Shown: positions 18,871 through 24,436 of the stretch, piece after piece | Position numbering within the stretch: the first letter of the stretch is position 1 | How the letters are laid out: each line of letters opens with the position of its first letter | From: a virus | Lineage: Duplodnaviria > Heunggongvirae > Uroviricota > Caudoviricetes | Virus record (IMG/VR): IMGVR_UViG_3300045988_003641 | Location: 1 to 64,000 of that record | Direction: 5' to 3' (one strand) | DNA: 64,000 nt | Made by a program: the position numbers and the translations under genes | Notes under the pieces: model-generated | Database searches by the model: none | Seen by the model: the letters and a program-made list of their open reading frames with translations, nothing else | What the model was told of the DNA's origin: nothing

Positions 18871-18947
18871 CTCTGTTTAGCTCAGCTTGGTAGAGCGTTC
18901 CGTTTGGGGCGGTAAGGCCGGAGGTTCAAGTCCTCCAACAGAGACCA
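18871..18947 (+). tRNA. tRNA-Pro (anticodon UGG)
   Basis: Manual cloverleaf: acceptor CTCTGTT/AACAGAG, T-loop TTCAAGT, loop TTTGGGG, CCA encoded. Confidence 0.6.
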
Positions 18948-18954
18948 AATTAAT

Positions 18955-19032
18955 GTTCCAGTAGACAAAATGGTAAAGTCACCACTCTTTCAAAGTGGAT
19001 ATCTGAGGGTTCAAATCCCTTCTGGAACGCCA
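18955..19032 (+). tRNA. tRNA-Glu (anticodon UUC)
   Basis: Acceptor GTTCCAG/CTGGAAC, anticodon stem CCACT/AGTGG, loop CTTTCAA. Confidence 0.6.
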
Positions 19033-19039
19033 GTTTTGA

Positions 19040-19112
19040 CAGAAGACCAATTACAGCAAACTTAATCTACTCATCTGACACGAAATCGGACAAAGAAGAT
19101 ATTTGGTCTGGT
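19040..19112 (+). ncRNA. structured non-tRNA element, family copy A (CAGAAGACC...ACAGCAA...GGTCTGG)
   Basis: Conserved 5' and 3' arms able to pair; between tRNA genes. Confidence 0.3.
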
Positions 19113-19122
19113 CATTGAGAAT

Positions 19123-19199
19123 TGCGGGTATAGAGAAAGGGCGTCTCACATGTCTCATTAGCATGGTATCGGCAGGTTCGACTCCTGCACCCGCCTCCA
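19123..19199 (+). tRNA. tRNA with anticodon CAU (Met or Ile2)
   Basis: Anticodon stem CATGT/GCATG, loop CTCATTA, T-loop TTCGACT, CCA encoded. Confidence 0.55.
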
Positions 19200-19205
19200 A
19201 TTTTG

Positions 19206-19265
19206 CAGAAGACCGTATTCAGCAACAAAATACTTTTTGCGGATAAAAGAAAAAACACGGTCTGG
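19206..19265 (+). ncRNA. structured non-tRNA element, family copy A'
   Basis: GCAGAAGACCG...TTCAGCAA...CGGTCTGGC. Confidence 0.3.
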
Positions 19266-19276
19266 CAATGTATTAA

Positions 19277-19353
19277 GGTTAGGAAGCACATAAGGTATGT
19301 GCGGTCGCCTGTTAAGCGAATGGCACAGGGTTCGAATCCCTGACTAACCGCCA
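19277..19353 (+). tRNA. tRNA-Asn (anticodon GUU)
   Basis: Acceptor GGTTAGG/ACTAACC, loop CTGTTAA, T-loop TTCGAAT. Confidence 0.6.
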
Positions 19354-19362
19354 AATTTAAAT

Positions 19363-19450
19363 GTGTCGTTATCCCGTAGATGGTAGCGGTGGGGACTGTA
19401 AATCCCTTGTCATTGAGACTCGGTAGGTTCGACTCCTACACGACACACCA
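19363..19450 (+). tRNA. tRNA-Tyr (anticodon GUA), class II with long variable arm
   Basis: 88 nt; acceptor GTGTCGT/ACGACAC; loop CTGTAAA. Confidence 0.6.
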
Positions 19451-19455
19451 ATAAA

Positions 19456-19533
19456 GGTTATGTAGTTTAATTTGGTTAAAATACTCCCCTGTCACGGGAG
19501 ATGATGATGGTTCAAATCCCTTCGTAACCGCCA
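19456..19533 (+). tRNA. tRNA-Asp (anticodon GUC)
   Basis: Anticodon stem CTCCC/GGGAG, loop CTGTCAC. Confidence 0.6.
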
Positions 19534-19594
19534 ATTTTGAGAGGGCTATTTAGCCCCTCCCTTAAAGAGTTCTTACGAGTATTCTTTAAAGGAG

Positions 19595-19668
19595 CAGAAG
19601 ACCAAATACAGCAAGAATGTATGAAATTTCAAGCCAATTTAATTTTGAAAATTTAAAACTTGGTCTGG
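19595..19668 (+). ncRNA. structured non-tRNA element, family copy B
   Basis: CAGAAGACCA...ACAGCAA...GGTCTGG. Confidence 0.3.
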
Positions 19669-19681
19669 CTCAACAAATTTA

Positions 19682-19813
19682 CAGAAGACCGTTTACAGCA
19701 AAACTTAAACAATCTATTTCTCCGGTAAAGAAAAGGCGAAGGTTCGATTCCTTCACTCGGCAGATGTCGAGTTGGTGTAATGGTAGCACTTAAGATGATA
19801 AACAACGGTCTGG
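19682..19813 (+). ncRNA. structured element, family copy C, with embedded tRNA-like module (T-arm then acceptor-like helix then D-loop-like segment, permuted order); candidate Y-RNA-like RNA
   Basis: CAGAAGACCG...GGTCTGG frame around GAAGGTTCGATTCCTTC T-arm (19736-19757) and GTCGAGTTGGTGTAATGGTAGCAC. Confidence 0.35.
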
Positions 19814-19819
19814 TAATTA

Positions 19820-22184: not shown

Positions 22185-22260
22185 GCAGGATTAGTTCAAA
22201 TGGATAGAGCAACAGTCTACGAAGCTGTTAATAGGGGTTCGAATCCCTTATCCTGCGCCA
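22185..22260 (+). tRNA. tRNA-Arg (anticodon ACG)
   Basis: Acceptor GCAGGAT/ATCCTGC, stem ACAGT/GCTGT, loop CTACGAA. Confidence 0.6.
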
Positions 22261-22277
22261 GATAAAAAGGTGATACT

Positions 22278-22520
22278 ATGCAAACATTAACAGTAGTTGA
22301 ACATGAAAACTGTGAGAATATTGAGTTTGTCAGGGTCATTGGTGTTGAACACCACATTTTCTTAAAAGTAGGGTACTTATGTGACCCCGCTAGAGTAGAA
22401 AGATTTATACGTGATTGTTTTGGTGGTAGACAGCTAAAGAGTGTTATTTTTGAGACAGTTTTACCAGAAGGTTTAGAAACGAATAATAACATTTATCTCC
22501 TTACAAGGATTAGACGATGA
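22278..22520 (+). CDS. hypothetical protein within tRNA array
   Basis: ORF 80 aa. Confidence 0.4.
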   Translation: MQTLTVVEHENCENIEFVRVIGVEHHIFLKVGYLCDPARVERFIRDCFGGRQLKSVIFETVLPEGLETNNNIYLLTRIRR

Positions 22521-23074
22521 GATATTTAAAATATGCTTCATGGATTTTCCTAGCTTTGCTAGAACCATTAGCAGCAACCTTAGCAGTTATCTTAGCACCT
22601 TTCGTAGTTCCATTTTACAGTGAGAAGAAAGGCCACTTACCTTTCGGATTTAGATGGATGGAGACATATGACAACCCAATTGATGGTGACGAAGGTCATA
22701 TCGAACGATGGGCTAAGATTAGAAAGATTGGTAAGCTGGGTGTCTACATGCAGAGAGTCGGATGGCTCTGGAGAAACAAAGCTTATAACTTCTCTTACCA
22801 TGTATTAGGAAGAGATGTAAAAGATGTTACTAAGTGGAAAGGTAATATCAACGTAAGTTCTGACCCTGAAGATAATCAGACAGGTTATCTCCTAATGTGG
22901 AACAGTAATGCTTGGGGATTATTCGCTTTTATCCCATCAATTAAAGTCTTTGGTAAACAGTTTTACTGGAGAATTTATATTGGATGGAAACTAAAAAGTG
23001 TTGTCCCAGAAGAAAGAGCATTCTCAAGGGAAAGAGTTATGTTGGCATTCTTTATTCATCCACTGAGAAAGTAA
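22517..23074 (+). CDS. hypothetical protein, N-terminal hydrophobic region
   Basis: ORF 185 aa; N-terminus WIFLALLEPLAATLAVILAPFVVPF. Confidence 0.5.
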   Translation: MRYLKYASWIFLALLEPLAATLAVILAPFVVPFYSEKKGHLPFGFRWMETYDNPIDGDEGHIERWAKIRKIGKLGVYMQRVGWLWRNKAYNFSYHVLGRDVKDVTKWKGNINVSSDPEDNQTGYLLMWNSNAWGLFAFIPSIKVFGKQFYWRIYIGWKLKSVVPEERAFSRERVMLAFFIHPLRK

Positions 23075-23082
23075 AGATTTAA

Positions 23083-23158
23083 AGGGGATTAGTTTACAAG
23101 GTTAAAACCTCGGTCTTTGAAATCGAAGAAGTTGGTTCAATTCCAACATCCCCCGCCA
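23083..23158 (+). tRNA. tRNA-Gln (anticodon UUG)
   Basis: Stem TCGGT/ATCGA, loop CTTTGAA, T-loop TTCAATT. Confidence 0.55.
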
Positions 23159-23160
23159 AT

Positions 23161-23239
23161 GCTCCATTACTCCAATTGGCAGAGAGGCCAGACTTAAAAT
23201 CTGTGTTATGTATCGGTTCGAATCCGATATGGAGTACCA
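23161..23239 (+). tRNA. tRNA with Leu-type anticodon UAA but short variable region
   Basis: Acceptor GCTCCAT/ATGGAGT, loop CTTAAAA, discriminator A. Confidence 0.45.
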
Positions 23240-23244
23240 AATTT

Positions 23245-23320
23245 AGCGGTATAGCATAACTGGCAATGCAACAGTCTCTGAAGCTGTCCTATTAAGGTTC
23301 AAATCCTTATGCCGCTGCCA
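23245..23320 (+). tRNA. tRNA-Gln (anticodon CUG)
   Basis: Acceptor AGCGGTA/TGCCGCT, stem ACAGT/GCTGT, loop CTCTGAA. Confidence 0.5.
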
Positions 23321-23351
23321 CTTCTAAGGGTTCTTACGAGAGTCCTTAAAT

Positions 23352-23427
23352 GTGGCCTTATCATAAATGGTAATGACCCATGCTGTGAACATGGTCTATA
23401 CGGGTTCAAATCCCGTAGGTCACCCCA
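23352..23427 (+). tRNA. tRNA-His (anticodon GUG)
   Basis: Anticodon stem CCATG/CATGG, loop CTGTGAA, T-loop TTCAAAT. Confidence 0.6.
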
Positions 23428-23432
23428 ATTTA

Positions 23433-23509
23433 TAGTCCAAGTAGCTTATATGGTTAAAGCGCGTGTCTGAAAAACATGAGAAGAGGGTTCAAATCCCACT
23501 GGACTACCA
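23433..23509 (+). tRNA. tRNA-Phe (anticodon GAA)
   Basis: Acceptor TAGTCCA/TGGACTA, stem CGTGT/ACATG, loop CTGAAAA. Confidence 0.6.
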
Positions 23510-23525
23510 ATTTCAAAGGTGCTTA

Positions 23526-24263
23526 ATGAAAGAGATGACAGAACAAGGTAAGGAGATTTTTAATCTCTTAAAAACCGGTAAAGGGTTTTCTAACCCACTT
23601 ATTACTGGTGCAGCAGTTCTCGGTGGAACCGTAGCTGCCTCTACATCACTTGTAAGCTCTATTAGTTCTGTAACAGACCCTACAATGCAGGAGAAACTTG
23701 TTGCTGCTGGACTTACAACAGTCCTTCTAAACAGCTTTACAACAAGCCTTACAAGCACTACAGCAACTACTAAGACCCTGACAGACTACGGTCAAAAATC
23801 TATTGATGAGTTTTCATCACGTATGCAGGAGGTAGCAAAGGGATATTCCAATGTTATGGGTGCAGCAGGAGAACAAGTTGGTTGTACACCGTTCAGTGGT
23901 ATTATGGGTGTTGCTACAGAATATGGTCAAAAAGCTATTGATACGATTAACAGTACACTAGAGAGTGTTAACGATGTATTAAGTGACTTACAAGACGCTA
24001 TTGACAAGGGTCTTGATACTGTTTCTGATTTAGCTAACCAAGCTGTCAGTAAGATTAATGAAGGTATCTCAAAGATTACAGCTTATGCAGATGAAGTTGT
24101 GCAGATGATTGAAGAAGAAGCTGCCCTTATTGCAGAGTACCTTAAAACGAATATCAATGGGTTCTTAGCAGGTATCTTACCAGACTGGTTTGACGATGCT
24201 TGTAAAACTGGTGTAATTGACACTATTGCAACACCAGAAATGAAGAGCGCATTACAGAAATAA
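23526..24263 (+). CDS. hypothetical protein, Ser/Thr-rich with coiled-coil-like C-terminal half
   Basis: Track ORF 23463-24263 overlaps tRNA-Phe; internal ATG 23526 taken as start. Confidence 0.5.
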   Translation: MKEMTEQGKEIFNLLKTGKGFSNPLITGAAVLGGTVAASTSLVSSISSVTDPTMQEKLVAAGLTTVLLNSFTTSLTSTTATTKTLTDYGQKSIDEFSSRMQEVAKGYSNVMGAAGEQVGCTPFSGIMGVATEYGQKAIDTINSTLESVNDVLSDLQDAIDKGLDTVSDLANQAVSKINEGISKITAYADEVVQMIEEEAALIAEYLKTNINGFLAGILPDWFDDACKTGVIDTIATPEMKSALQK

Positions 24264-24265
24264 TG

Positions 24266-24357
24266 GAAGATTAACCCTAAAAGGTAAGGGAGCAGTTTGC
24301 TAAACTGCCAGTAGCTGAGAAATCGGTGTACCAGTTCAAGTCTGGTATCTTCCTCCA
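24266..24357 (+). tRNA. tRNA-Ser (anticodon GCU), class II
   Basis: 92 nt; acceptor GGAAGAT/ATCTTCC, stem GCAGT/ACTGC, loop TTGCTAA. Confidence 0.6.
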
Positions 24358-24361
24358 ATTT

Positions 24362-24436
24362 GAATCCGTGACAGAAATGGCTATGTGCCTGTCTGCAAAA
24401 CAGGTTTATAAGGGTTCGAGTCCCTTCGGATTCTCC
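24362..24436 (+). tRNA. tRNA-Cys (anticodon GCA)
   Basis: Acceptor GAATCCG/CGGATTC, stem CCTGT/ACAGG, loop CTGCAAA. Confidence 0.6.

What the first reader, a model, noticed from the sequence alone, without database searches (positions are those of the whole stretch)
18871..24436. tRNA array appears to cover all 20 amino acids
By manual cloverleaf reading I find about 27 tRNA genes with anticodons for Pro, Glu, Met/Ile2 (two CAU), Asn, Tyr, Asp, Lys (UUU and CUU), Ile, Trp, Ser (UGA and GCU), Ala, Gly, Thr, Val, Arg, Gln (UUG and CUG), His, Phe, Cys and three Leu-type. A near-complete set suggests strong independence from host tRNA pools, possibly as a counter to host anticodon nucleases, which would fit the Ro60-like/RNA-element module.
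Basis: inference. Interest (0 to 1): 0.5.

Follow-up and report, generated by a model that had tools for sequence, protein, structure and literature searches.

The report
Felix O1-type phage tRNA gene array
This is the well-known tRNA gene cluster of a Felix O1-like phage; it has anticodons for all 20 amino acids, it matches the phage's own codon usage, and it holds several odd RNAs that standard tools miss.

Summary
Confirmed. ARAGORN tRNA genes at 18871-24437, all on the + strand. Rfam adds a 27th at 20446-20524, a tRNA-Arg(UCU) with no normal D arm.

The window is a Felixounavirus, 95-99% identical to wV8, ASO1A and the O157 typing phages, whose arrays are already annotated. The array itself is therefore known.

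New detail found here:
- tRNA-Trp sits in a small cassette with an HNH gene that about 23 of 354 related records carry. Relatives without it hold an atypical Trp-like gene at that site.
- The 27 tRNAs could read 59 of 61 sense codons.
- Late structural genes use AGA/AGG for 68% of Arg codons (E. coli about 1%). They almost lack AUA and CGG, the only two codons with no phage tRNA.

Codon supply is the best-supported function. The anti-anticodon-nuclease idea is plausible but untested here: the Lys, Tyr and Arg(ACG) anticodon loops are identical to E. coli's.

The upstream gene has a Ro60 fold. The spacers also hold four Y-RNA-like elements and a promoter-driven tmRNA-like RNA encoding ANDNVFLAVA, with no tRNA-like domain found.

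The parts
17290..18705 (+). Ro60-like (TROVE + vWA fold) protein gene, 471 aa, directly upstream of the array
   Evidence: Pfam DUF2828 + DUF7788 + weak VWA_2. PHROG 850 'RNA-binding protein'. AF2 model pLDDT 89. Foldseek PDB top 12 hits are all Ro60/TROVE, E 1e-8 to 1e-6, TM 0.48-0.66.
18724..18844 (+). two tandem sigma-70-like promoters ahead of the first tRNA (18724-18752 and 18815-18844)
   Evidence: consensus scan, 10 of 12 matches each; consensus matches only, not tested
18871..19032 (+). tRNA-Pro(UGG) 18871-18947; tRNA-Glu(UUC) 18955-19032
   Evidence: ARAGORN; Rfam 57.7 and 60.4 bits
19037..19114 (+). Y-RNA-like element E1 (CAGAAGACC...ACAGCAA ... GGUCUGG bulged stem)
   Evidence: repeat family, 4 copies against 0.23 expected; shared fold of 4-bp outer stem, AGA bulge, AGACC/GGUCU stem
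19123..19199 (+). tRNA with CAU anticodon no. 1 (U1xC72 mismatch, U37, U73)
   Evidence: ARAGORN; below Rfam gathering score; acceptor GCGGG resembles E. coli initiator
19203..19268 (+). Y-RNA-like element E2
19277..19533 (+). tRNA-Asn(GUU) 19277-19353; tRNA-Tyr(GUA) 19363-19450 (long variable arm); tRNA-Asp(GUC) 19456-19533
   Evidence: ARAGORN; Rfam 48.0, 31.6 and 56.9 bits
19592..19671 (+). Y-RNA-like element E3
19679..19816 (+). Y-RNA-like element E4 with an internal tRNA-like module (T arm, closed acceptor-like hairpin, D-arm-like hairpin), YrlA-like layout
   Evidence: MFE fold; weak partial tRNA hit 19705-19755, 22 bits; layout as described for YrlA (PMC4201824)
19963..20197 (+). tRNA-Lys(UUU) 19963-20038; CAU tRNA no. 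2 20044-20120 (GGG/CCC in anticodon stem, U73); tRNA-Ile(GAU) 20122-20197
   Evidence: ARAGORN; Rfam 54.4, 56.9 and 62.3 bits
20213..20241 (+). internal promoter TTGACA-N17-TATAGT, best match in the region, 7 nt before the tmRNA-like RNA
   Evidence: 11 of 12 matches; equivalent promoters in Roscha1, swi2 and KP591P3
20249..20445 (+). tmRNA-like RNA with no tRNA-like domain found. Conserved core 20249-20405. Tag reading frame 20291-20320 encodes ANDNVFLAVA, followed by stops TGA TAG at 20321-20326.
   Evidence: Rfam tmRNA models match below threshold. At least 119 IMG/VR loci; 127 of 132 pattern hits have a stop directly after LAVA. Complementary helix variants. No TLD found.
20446..20524 (+). 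non-canonical tRNA-Arg(UCU): acceptor, anticodon and T arms present; no D arm; 23-nt segment between the anticodon and T arms; encoded ACCA
   Evidence: Rfam 31.7 bits. 26 distinct phage variants: 99.3% of cells paired, 14 of 17 pairs with compensatory changes, 0 of 500 shuffles as high. A canonical tRNA-Arg(UCU) fills the same slot in relatives L155 and L099. Annotated tRNA-Arg in some GenBank records.
20677..21166 (+). tRNA-Trp(CCA) 20677-20747 (reduced D arm, A1-U72, G73) plus HNH endonuclease ORF 20762-21166; the two form one indel cassette
   Evidence: ARAGORN; Rfam 33.2 bits; PHROG 2255 HNH. Cassette in about 23 of 354 related records. Replaced in ASO1A and Felix O1 by an atypical Trp-like gene.
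21180..21269 (+). tRNA-Ser(UGA), long variable arm; the only gene without a full encoded CCA (ends GCC)
   Evidence: ARAGORN; Rfam 33.2 bits
21523..21930 (+). tRNA-Leu(UAG), Lys(CUU), Ala(UGC), Gly(UCC), Thr(UGU)
   Evidence: ARAGORN; Rfam 40-59.6 bits
22026..22260 (+). tRNA-Val(UAC), Leu(CAA), Arg(ACG)
   Evidence: ARAGORN; Rfam 60.0, 44.0 and 59.8 bits
22278..23074 (+). two small ORFs inside the array (80 aa; 185 aa DUF7338), function unknown
   Evidence: annotated as CDS in ASO1A
23083..23509 (+). tRNA-Gln(UUG), Leu(UAA), Gln(CUG), His(GUG; U at -1), Phe(GAA)
   Evidence: ARAGORN; Rfam 45-58.4 bits; -1 base
23526..24263 (+). ORF with DUF7217, function unknown, inside the array
   Evidence: Pfam 2.2e-86; annotated as CDS in ASO1A
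24265..24437 (+). tRNA-Ser(GCU) 24265-24357; tRNA-Cys(GCA) 24362-24437; end of the array
   Evidence: ARAGORN; Rfam 46.2 and 56.4 bits
24600..24617 (+). terminator-like hairpin plus T run after the array, before the terminase gene
   Evidence: consensus scan

Best explanation
The region is the tRNA gene array of a Felix O1-like virulent myovirus (Felixounavirus). It lies between a Ro60-like gene and the terminase gene. It appears to be transcribed rightward from sigma-70-like promoters as multi-gene precursors, which host enzymes such as RNase P would cut into mature tRNAs (inferred). Its main job is codon supply. The phage is about 39-40% G+C and its host about 51%. The array carries one U34 tRNA for each four-codon box, plus Leu-UAA, Arg-UCU and Lys-CUU, which are the readers of the A-ending and AGR codons the phage over-uses. 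Late structural genes have co-adapted to this set. They use AGA/AGG heavily, where a phage tRNA exists, and avoid AUA and CGG, where none exists. As a result the phage can translate its most abundant proteins almost without drawing on scarce or missing host tRNAs. Shown here: the genes, their conservation, and the match between codons and anticodons. Inferred: processing, charging, and the size of the fitness gain.
For: Genes are called by two methods. The same array sits at the same place in Felix O1, wV8 and ASO1A and, reordered, in the Erwinia phage Roscha1 of the same subfamily. Codon counts used 17,407 phage codons against 10,653 annotated E. coli K-12 codons. The six most phage-enriched codons are AGA (10.9x), AGG (9.5x), ACA, CUA, UCA and UUA. 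Five have an exactly cognate phage tRNA, and AGG is read by wobble from Arg-UCU. In four- and six-codon families the cognate codons are raised over the host in 10 of 12 cases (Mann-Whitney p 0.008 for late genes, 0.002 for other genes). In the structural block 24867-47778 (terminase, portal, protease, major head, sheath, tape measure, baseplate, fibre) AGA plus AGG make 68% of Arg codons, against 1.3% in E. coli highly expressed genes. In the same block AUA falls to 3 codons, against 64 in the other phage genes (Fisher p 4.5e-14), and CGG to 1 codon. 99.95% of late codons are readable by the 27 tRNAs. 25 of 26 genes encode CCA. The Arg-UCU slot is always filled, by a canonical or by the non-canonical gene. 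On the experimental side, Felixounavirus phages REP05-12 infect Syn61-delta-3, and the paper groups them with phages that encode an appropriate seryl-tRNA (PMC12269064).
Against: In Bas63, another Felixounavirus, tRNA genes were mostly non-essential on four K-12-type hosts (PMC11482910), so the benefit is conditional or small in the laboratory. Reading 59 of 61 codons assumes four-way reading by U34, which is documented only for some cmo5U tRNAs (general knowledge, not tested here). With A/G/U reading, 52 codons are covered. Highly expressed E. coli genes also avoid AUA and CGG, so that part of the late-gene pattern could be ordinary adaptation to the host. The host codon sample is one 50-kb region. 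The phage ORF set came from a greedy ORF pick; the genome-wide counts include about 5 spurious ORFs in the array, about 2% of codons, which were excluded from the late-versus-other comparisons. No expression, processing or charging data were available.
Confidence: 0.72

Rival explanations
1. Counter-defence. The array exists mainly to replace host tRNAs that anticodon nucleases cut on infection (PrrC, PARIS AriB, retron-Eco7 PtuAB, colicin-type enzymes, VapC). It would do this with resistant variants or by sheer over-supply.
For: The array includes the usual targets: Lys-UUU, Tyr, His, Asn, Asp, Arg-ACG and CAU tRNAs. It also carries a Lys-CUU that the five Lys genes in the sampled K-12 lysT cluster do not provide; all five are UUU. 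That E. coli has no Lys-CUU gene at all is general knowledge. Phage tRNAs rescuing infection from PtuAB and PrrC is shown for T5, T1 and T7 (PMC11555353). Anticodon-loop escape is proposed for mycobacteriophages (PMC10264068). Here the loops differ from the host at positions 32, 37 or 38 in Pro, Leu-UAG, both Gln, His and Ser-GCU, and all anticodon stems differ. tRNAs non-essential on laboratory strains fit a conditional 'toolbox' role.
Against: The 7-nt loops of Lys-UUU, Tyr and Arg-ACG, the best-known E. coli targets, are identical to the host's. A defence-only role does not explain why the set is one reader per codon box, nor why late genes are tuned to it. The neighbouring Ro60-like protein was linked experimentally to ppl, not to a tRNA nuclease. 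Nothing here tests cleavage.
Confidence: 0.3
2. Compensation for phage-induced loss of host translation capacity. After host DNA or RNA degradation and transcription shut-off, host tRNAs decay, and the phage needs its own near-complete set late in infection.
For: The set is near-complete rather than limited to rare codons. Late genes fit it best. The idea has been proposed for other lytic phages (general knowledge; that paper was not read here).
Against: No evidence in the window for a host-tRNA-degrading function. tRNAs are stable over a short infection cycle. tRNAs were mostly dispensable in Bas63.
Confidence: 0.25
3. Host-range buffer plus selfish spread. The array lets one phage grow on Escherichia, Salmonella, Shigella, Citrobacter and other hosts with different tRNA pools. 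Its content turns over because homing endonucleases carry tRNA genes in and out.
For: Close relatives infect many enterobacterial genera. Trp travels with an HNH gene as one cassette. Felix O1 has three HNH genes inside its array. Canonical and non-canonical Arg-UCU genes replace each other at one slot.
Against: Enterobacterial tRNA pools are very similar, so the buffering need is small (general knowledge). This explains turnover, not why the set is kept.
Confidence: 0.2

Closest known systems
tRNA arrays of Felix O1, wV8, ASO1A and the E. coli O157 typing phages (Felixounavirus)
   Same: 95-99% nucleotide identity over the whole region, same gene order, same flanking genes. wV8 (L037) gives the identical ARAGORN result, 26 tRNAs for 20 amino acids.
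   Different: Nothing essential. Published counts are lower (22 for Felix O1, 23 for wV8, 17-23 by tRNAscan-SE in 23 genomes; PMC2674420, PMC8300805) because atypical genes are missed. Most relatives lack the Trp-HNH cassette.
T5 tRNA-rich region (Demerecviridae)
   Same: A large tRNA cluster in a virulent coliphage, interspersed with small ORFs. T5-like contigs also carry the tmRNA-like RNA (tag ANDNQYLAVA).
   Different: For T5, protection against retron-Eco7 by an over-expressed tRNA-Tyr is shown experimentally (PMC11555353). No such data exist for this array, and there is no sequence relation between the two arrays.
Cluster C1 mycobacteriophages (Bxz1, Rizal): about 36 tRNAs, a tmRNA and a Ro-like protein
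   Same: The same trio of a large tRNA cluster, a tmRNA-type RNA and a Ro60-type protein. tmRNA in Bxz1: PMC4131195. 36 tRNAs in Rizal: PMC10264068. Ro homologue in Bxz1: general knowledge.
   Different: The Bxz1 tmRNA is a standard one-piece tmRNA found by standard tools. The RNA here has no detectable tRNA-like domain and fails every tmRNA model threshold. The hosts and phage lineages are unrelated.
Bacterial YrlA / Y RNAs with Ro60 (Rsr)
   Same: The elements are encoded next to a Ro60-fold protein. E4 has the YrlA order: T arm, acceptor-like hairpin, D arm, all inside a long bulged stem.
   Different: The conserved stem motif is CAGAAGACC / GGUCUGG, not GNCGAAN0-1G. There is no Rfam hit. 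The protein is DUF2828-type, not Pfam TROVE.
D-arm-lacking mitochondrial tRNAs (e.g. mammalian mt-tRNA-Ser AGY)
   Same: The Arg-UCU gene at 20446-20524 keeps the acceptor, anticodon and T arms but has no D stem-loop.
   Different: This is a resemblance only (general knowledge). The phage gene has an invariant 23-nt segment after the anticodon arm, with a possible 3-bp hairpin and a GG pair. It is found almost only in phage contigs.

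Membership tests
Felixounavirus tRNA gene array | Homologous cluster at the same genome position (between the DUF2828/Ro60-like gene and the terminase gene) in named members of the genus | tested here: met
   megablast: 354 records, 193 with at least 80% coverage, best 95-99% identity; annotation of ASO1A and Felix O1
Felixounavirus tRNA gene array | Cloverleaf tRNA genes called by independent methods | tested here: met
   ARAGORN 26; Rfam 25 at gathering score, 24 shared; Trp passes in a smaller search
Canonical tRNA (for 20446-20524, Arg-UCU) | Acceptor, anticodon and T helices kept by compensatory change; 7-nt anticodon loop with U33 and a purine at 37 | tested here: met
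   26 variants: 99.3% of cells paired, 14 of 17 pairs with changes on both sides, 0 of 500 shuffles as high; loop CUUCUAA invariant
Canonical tRNA (for 20446-20524, Arg-UCU) | D stem-loop between position 9 and the anticodon arm | tested here: not met
   Only 7 nt (UAUCUCA) lie between the acceptor and anticodon stems. The Rfam alignment deletes the D arm and inserts 20 nt after the anticodon arm. ARAGORN does not call it.
Canonical tRNA (for 20446-20524, Arg-UCU) | Charged with arginine and used on the ribosome | not testable with these tools
   Indirect only: it fills the slot held by a canonical Arg-UCU in relatives, and late genes use AGA for 55% of Arg codons
tmRNA (ssrA), for 20249-20445 | mRNA-like domain: resume codon after an A-rich leader, and a short tag reading frame ending in a hydrophobic C-terminus and a stop | tested here: met
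   The tag ANDNVFLAVA resembles the E. coli tag ANDENYALAA (recalled from general knowledge, not retrieved here). 127 of 132 pattern hits have a stop directly after LAVA. Changes fall at third codon positions. The Rfam tmRNA model aligns the leader and tag with high posterior probability.
tmRNA (ssrA), for 20249-20445 | Pseudoknots around the tag region | tested here: met
   Helix Ha has 5 complementary variants, Hb 6, and PK3 at least 6. The loop CCAA/CCGA/CCAG covaries with downstream UUGG/UCGG/CUGG, read off the alignment by eye; the automatic scan for this pairing was noisy.
tmRNA (ssrA), for 20249-20445 | tRNA-like domain: acceptor stem with G3:U70, T arm, 3' CCA | tested here: not met
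   The RNA starts at GUUUUCG a few nt after the -10 box, leaving no room for a 5' acceptor strand. No shared T arm plus CCA partner in about 95 contexts. ARAGORN tmRNA search is negative for the window and for L001-L003; in L004 it gives one call that borrows a neighbouring tRNA-Met and reads an unrelated tag.
tmRNA (ssrA), for 20249-20445 | Reaches the Rfam gathering score of a tmRNA family | tested here: not met
   29.2 and 16 bits against 47; no tmRNA call in 10 related loci
Y RNA / YrlA, for E1-E4 (19037-19816) | Encoded next to a Ro60 orthologue | tested here: met
   Ro60 fold of the 471-aa protein; the elements begin about 330 nt downstream of it
Y RNA / YrlA, for E1-E4 (19037-19816) | Long stem formed by the 5' and 3' ends, with tRNA-like T and D arms and an acceptor-like hairpin between them (YrlA) | tested here: inconclusive
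   The MFE fold of E4 shows exactly this. The four paralogues have different but complementary outer stems. No cross-species covariation test was done.
Y RNA / YrlA, for E1-E4 (19037-19816) | Ro-binding motif GNCGAAN0-1G near the 5' end (PMC4201824) | tested here: not met
   The conserved 5' motif is CAGAAGACCnnnnnCAGCAA; no Rfam hit
Phage tRNAs that defeat anticodon nucleases (T5 tRNA-Tyr / tRNA-Lys type) | Anticodon-loop differences from the host isoacceptor at or near the cleavage site | tested here: not met
   Lys-UUU, Tyr and Arg-ACG loops are identical to E. coli K-12. Differences are seen only in Pro, Leu-UAG, Gln x2, His, Ser-GCU and the CAU tRNAs.
Phage tRNAs that defeat anticodon nucleases (T5 tRNA-Tyr / tRNA-Lys type) | Rescue of infection in a host that expresses the nuclease | not testable with these tools
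   needs experiments

The most novel reading that the evidence does not exclude
The 'tRNA array' is really a phage translation and RNA-conflict island that holds three RNA classes not found described in the literature or libraries searched here. First, a phage-restricted tRNA-Arg(UCU) family with no D arm, on which late-gene translation depends. Second, a widespread tmRNA-derived RNA that keeps the tag template (AN[D/E]xx[F/Y]LAVA) and the pseudoknots but has no tRNA-like domain. It would have to work as a split tmRNA with an unknown acceptor piece, re-tagging products of stalled ribosomes during infection. Third, four Y-like RNAs that partner the Ro60-like anti-defence protein.
Probability: 0.25. 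Interest if true: 0.8.

Novelty: already known. Interest (0 to 1): 0.33.

Why it matters
The array itself adds nothing new. Felix O1-type phages are known to carry 20-odd tRNA genes, and near-identical arrays are already annotated in GenBank.

The check still has three uses.
- It shows that automated counts understate the set. A D-arm-less Arg-UCU and an atypical Trp-like gene are missed.
- It shows that the phage's late genes are tuned to its own tRNAs. AGA makes up 55% of Arg codons in the late block, and the two unreadable codons are nearly absent. This gives a clean, testable case for the codon-supply theory and for how such phages escape recoded hosts.
- It points to unannotated RNAs inside the array that deserve their own evaluation, the tmRNA-like RNA and the Y-like RNAs.

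Tried and rejected
1. BLAST of the two CAU tRNAs against 5,426 E. coli genomes to assign them to Met, fMet or Ile2 gave no usable match. Alignment with E. coli ileX, metZ and metT and with the three Roscha1 CAU tRNAs did not settle identity.
2. First IMG/VR pattern for the tag used a wrong spacer (N9 instead of N10). Its 12 hits are irrelevant. It was repeated correctly.
3. Search for a tRNA-like domain belonging to the tmRNA-like RNA:
   - the Rfam permuted-tmRNA hit borrows the T arm of tRNA-Ile and scores 29 against a threshold of 47;
   - no complement of the 5' GUUUUCGU elsewhere in the window;
   - a scan of about 95 contexts for a T loop, CCA and a complementary 5' strand gave only noise.
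   The idea that the adjacent Arg-UCU gene serves as this domain was rejected. In other phages the RNA is followed by different tRNAs or by none, and G3:U70 is not conserved in that gene.
4. An alternative reading frame through the tag (AUG CAA ... UGG CAG UAG) was rejected. Variation falls at third positions of the ANDxx frame, and the Roscha1 GTG variant breaks the other frame.
5. Looser pattern to find variants of the Arg-UCU core that might show covariation of a D-like helix gave only two new loci, with the core invariant. A 3-bp hairpin in the extra segment is compatible with all variants but has one-sided changes only.
6. phmmer of the 471-aa protein against PDB sequences gave nothing. 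The fold search was needed.
7. Literature searches for 'phage-encoded tmRNA', for 'tmRNA-like' plus phage, and for a D-arm-less phage tRNA-Arg found nothing relevant.

Full report
**Observation.** ARAGORN finds 26 tRNA genes in the window. All are on the + strand, between 18871 and 24437, and there are none elsewhere (cloverleaves). Rfam's tRNA model at its gathering score finds 25 genes, of which 24 coincide with ARAGORN's. Trp (20677-20747) passes when less sequence is searched (33.2 bits). CAU-19123 is an ARAGORN-only call. Rfam also reports one gene ARAGORN misses, at 20446-20524 (31.7 bits).

**What the window is.** The 5.7-kb region matches 354 phage records by megablast, 193 of them over at least 80% of its length. 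The best matches are E. coli O157 typing phages 8 and 11 and wV8 (95.6% over 100%) and ASO1A (98.6% over 91%). All are Felixounavirus, that is, Felix O1-like myoviruses. In ASO1A and Felix O1 the same tRNAs are annotated in the same order, between a 471-aa gene and the large terminase gene. wV8 gives the identical ARAGORN result, 26 tRNAs for 20 amino acids (L037). Published counts are 22 for Felix O1, 23 for wV8, and 17-23 for 23 genomes by tRNAscan-SE (PMC2674420; PMC8300805). The array as such is already known.

**The 27th gene.** Region 20446-20524 has a 7-bp acceptor stem, a 5-bp stem closing the loop CUUCUAA (anticodon UCU, Arg), a T arm and an encoded ACCA. Only 7 nt (UAUCUCA) stand where the D arm should be, and 23 nt lie between the anticodon and T arms.
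- Exact-pattern scans of IMG/VR found it in 42 contigs of 14-360 kb.
- The 26 distinct full-length variants are paired in 99.3% of cells in the three helices. 14 of 17 pairs show changes on both sides, and none of 500 shuffles reaches this.
- The two odd segments and the anticodon loop are invariant.
- A 3-bp hairpin in the long segment fits all variants, but only through one-sided changes.
- In Felix-like relatives that lack this gene (L155, L099), a normal 77-nt tRNA-Arg(UCU) sits in the same slot. Roscha1 also has a normal one.
- Some GenBank records annotate the odd gene as tRNA-Arg.
- Only 2 of 185,579 species-representative bacterial genomes contain it, both on MAG contigs of about 40 kb.

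I take it to be a working, structurally non-canonical tRNA-Arg(UCU). Charging could not be tested.

**Trp and 'all 20'.** The segment from about 20671 to 21180, which holds tRNA-Trp and an HNH endonuclease gene, is present as a unit in about 23 related records. Other relatives match only the 31 nt to its left. ASO1A and Felix O1 have 25 ARAGORN tRNAs and no Trp call. At that site they carry a different, atypical gene. It has the loop CUCCAAA, A1-U72, G73 and an oversized D region, and it scores only 23 bits on the tRNA-Sec model. A caller-visible full set of 20 is therefore a property of the wV8-like subset and rides on a homing-endonuclease cassette.

**Oddities among the 26.**
- The three Leu tRNAs are 78-79 nt with short variable loops, whereas E. 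coli leuW and leuT are 85 and 87 nt.
- Among the fetched phage loci, 56 of 76 Leu tRNAs are 80 nt or shorter, while every Ser and Tyr tRNA is long. It is general knowledge that E. coli LeuRS does not need the long arm.
- tRNA-His has U at -1, where E. coli hisR has G-1. RefSeq flags His and Tyr as pseudogenes in Felix O1.
- Both CAU tRNAs have U73. One has a U1xC72 mismatch and an initiator-like acceptor stem. The other has GGG/CCC in the anticodon stem. Their identity stays open.
- 25 of 26 genes encode CCA.
- Identity to E. coli isoacceptors is 58-75%. The two CAU tRNAs, the only ones tested by BLAST, gave no usable match to E. coli chromosomes.

**Function: codon supply.** I compared 83 phage ORFs (17,407 codons) with the annotated genes of a 50-kb E. 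coli K-12 region (10,653 codons).
- The array has one U34 tRNA per four-codon box, plus Arg-ACG, Leu-UAA and Leu-CAA, Ser-GCU and G34 tRNAs for the two-codon boxes.
- The six codons most enriched in the phage are AGA (10.9x), AGG (9.5x), ACA, CUA, UCA and UUA. Five have an exactly cognate phage tRNA, and AGG is read by wobble from Arg-UCU.
- In four- and six-codon families the cognate codons are raised in 10 of 12 cases (p 0.008 and 0.002).
- The 26 tRNAs read 43 codons under strict wobble, and 57 if U34 reads a whole box. With Arg-UCU the total is 59 of 61, missing only AUA and CGG.
- In the structural block 24867-47778 (identified), AGA and AGG make 55% and 13% of Arg codons, against 1.3% combined in E. 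coli highly expressed genes.
- In that block AUA drops to 3 codons, against 64 in the rest of the phage (Fisher p 4.5e-14), and CGG to 1. 99.95% of late codons are readable by phage tRNAs.

Among host-rare codons, late genes therefore use freely those for which the phage brings a tRNA and shun those for which it does not. This argues that Arg-UCU works and that neither CAU tRNA reads AUA. It also shows that the tRNA set and the late genes are matched to each other.

Published experiments fit this reading. Felixounavirus phages REP05-12 infect the recoded host Syn61-delta-3, and the paper groups them with phages that encode an appropriate seryl-tRNA (PMC12269064). Against a strong requirement, Bas63 tRNAs were mostly non-essential on four K-12 hosts (PMC11482910).

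**Function: anticodon nucleases.** Rescue by phage tRNAs is real for T5, T1 and T7 (PMC11555353), and loop mutations have been proposed as an escape route (PMC10264068). Here the 7-nt loops of Lys-UUU, Tyr, Arg-ACG, Gly, Thr and Val equal those of E. coli K-12. Pro, Leu-UAG, both Gln, His, Ser-GCU and the CAU tRNAs differ at positions 32, 37 or 38. The idea is therefore open. The sequence does not support it for the classic targets, and it cannot be tested with these tools.

**Surroundings.** The 471-aa gene upstream (DUF2828 + DUF7788) has no PDB match by sequence. Its AlphaFold model (pLDDT 89) matches Ro60/TROVE structures over its full length, including the Thermus phage phiLo Ro60, Xenopus Ro60 and Deinococcus Rsr. 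In Bas63 the homologue gp130 counters the ppl defence system, and the authors guessed that some 'tRNAs' might be Y RNAs.

The spacers at 19037-19816 hold four copies of a motif, CAGAAGACCnnnnnCAGCAA ... GGUCUGG, against 0.23 expected by chance. The copies fold alike. Each has a 4-bp outer stem that differs between copies but is always complementary, then an AGA bulge, then an AGACC/GGUCU stem. The fourth copy encloses a T arm, a closed acceptor-like hairpin and a D-like arm, which is the layout described for YrlA (PMC4201824). The published Ro-binding motif is absent, and Rfam finds nothing.

**tmRNA-like RNA.** The best promoter match in the region (20213-20241) is followed 7 nt later by GUUUUCG. 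Next come a hairpin, an A-rich stretch and the reading frame GCA AAC GAC AAT GTT TTT CTG GCA GTA GCT TGA TAG, which encodes ANDNVFLAVA. For comparison, the E. coli ssrA tag is ANDENYALAA (recalled from general knowledge).
- Rfam's tmRNA models align this part well but score only 16-29 bits against a threshold of 47.
- Related RNAs occur in Cba120-like, swi2-like, T5-like and Erwinia phages and in at least 119 IMG/VR contigs.
- 127 of 132 pattern hits have a stop codon directly after LAVA. The tags follow AN[D/E]xx[F/Y]LAVA, with changes at third codon positions.
- Three helices show 5, 6 and at least 6 complementary variants.
- No tRNA-like domain belongs to it.
- It lies unannotated in 690 of 5,426 E. 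coli genomes, mostly on plasmids of roughly 70-180 kb.
- A 2014 survey found ssrA only in mycobacteriophages, with Bacillus phage G named separately (PMC4131195). One genome note says Felix O1 encodes ssrA (PMC4392139).

How a template without an acceptor domain could work is unknown.

**Verdict.** The finding is real, and its core is already known. Codon supply matched to late genes is the best-supported function (confidence about 0.7). Counter-defence is a plausible addition (about 0.3). The parts worth a separate look are the non-canonical tRNA-Arg(UCU), the tmRNA-like RNA and the Y-like RNAs.

Noticed in passing
window 20249-20445 (tag 20291-20320, stops 20321-20326; promoter 20213-20241): A promoter-driven RNA with a tmRNA-type tag template (ANDNVFLAVA, double stop) and covarying pseudoknots, but no tRNA-like domain. 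The family is widespread: at least 119 IMG/VR contigs, many phage groups, and 690 of 5,426 E. coli genomes, mostly on plasmids. It is unannotated and falls below all Rfam tmRNA thresholds.
   Followed up: partly
window 19037-19114, 19203-19268, 19592-19671, 19679-19816: Four paralogous RNAs share a bulged stem (CAGAAGACC / GGUCUGG). The last one encloses a YrlA-like tRNA mimic. They lie just downstream of a Ro60-fold protein gene (17290-18705), so they are candidate phage Y RNAs.
   Followed up: partly
window 20671-21180; L001 4873-4947; L002 about 4540-4625: tRNA-Trp and an HNH endonuclease gene form one cassette found in a minority of relatives. Relatives without it carry an atypical Trp-like gene (loop CUCCAAA, oversized D region) that tRNA callers miss.
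   Followed up: yes
window 21523-21600, 22102-22179, 23161-23239: All three tRNA-Leu genes have short (class I-type) variable loops, unlike bacterial tRNA-Leu. The same holds for 56 of 76 Leu tRNAs in the fetched phage loci, while every Ser and Tyr tRNA keeps the long arm.
   Followed up: partly
window 23351-23427: tRNA-His has U at position -1 instead of the encoded G-1 of E. coli hisR, while keeping C73. Roscha1 has G at -1. RefSeq flags the Felix O1 copy as a pseudogene.
   Followed up: partly
window 24867-47778 compared with the rest of the window: Structural genes almost lack AUA (3 codons) and CGG (1 codon), the only two codons without a phage tRNA. They use AGA for 55% of Arg codons. 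Other phage genes use AUA 64 times.
   Followed up: yes
window 19813-19960, 21425-21524, 21931-22025: Three further spacers fold far better than shuffled controls (z -6.3, -6.1 and -4.1). They are long hairpins of unknown role.
   Followed up: no
window about 19555-19590, 20406-20440, 23322-23350; L006 about 4165-4195: A recurring short hairpin of the form UUAAGGG(U/C)UCUUACGAGAGUCCUUAA lies between RNA genes. It may be a processing signal (seen in the sequence).
   Followed up: no
L006 about 3795-3975 (Erwinia phage Roscha1); L003 about 1735-1860 (Cba120): Oversized tRNA-like RNAs of about 125-180 nt, with a complementary 5' strand, a T arm and a 3' CCA, lie next to the tmRNA-like RNA in other phages. 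It is unknown whether they are its acceptor partners.
   Followed up: no
window 22278-23074 and 23526-24263: Three conserved protein genes of unknown function (80 aa; DUF7338; DUF7217) are embedded in the tRNA array in all close relatives.
   Followed up: no
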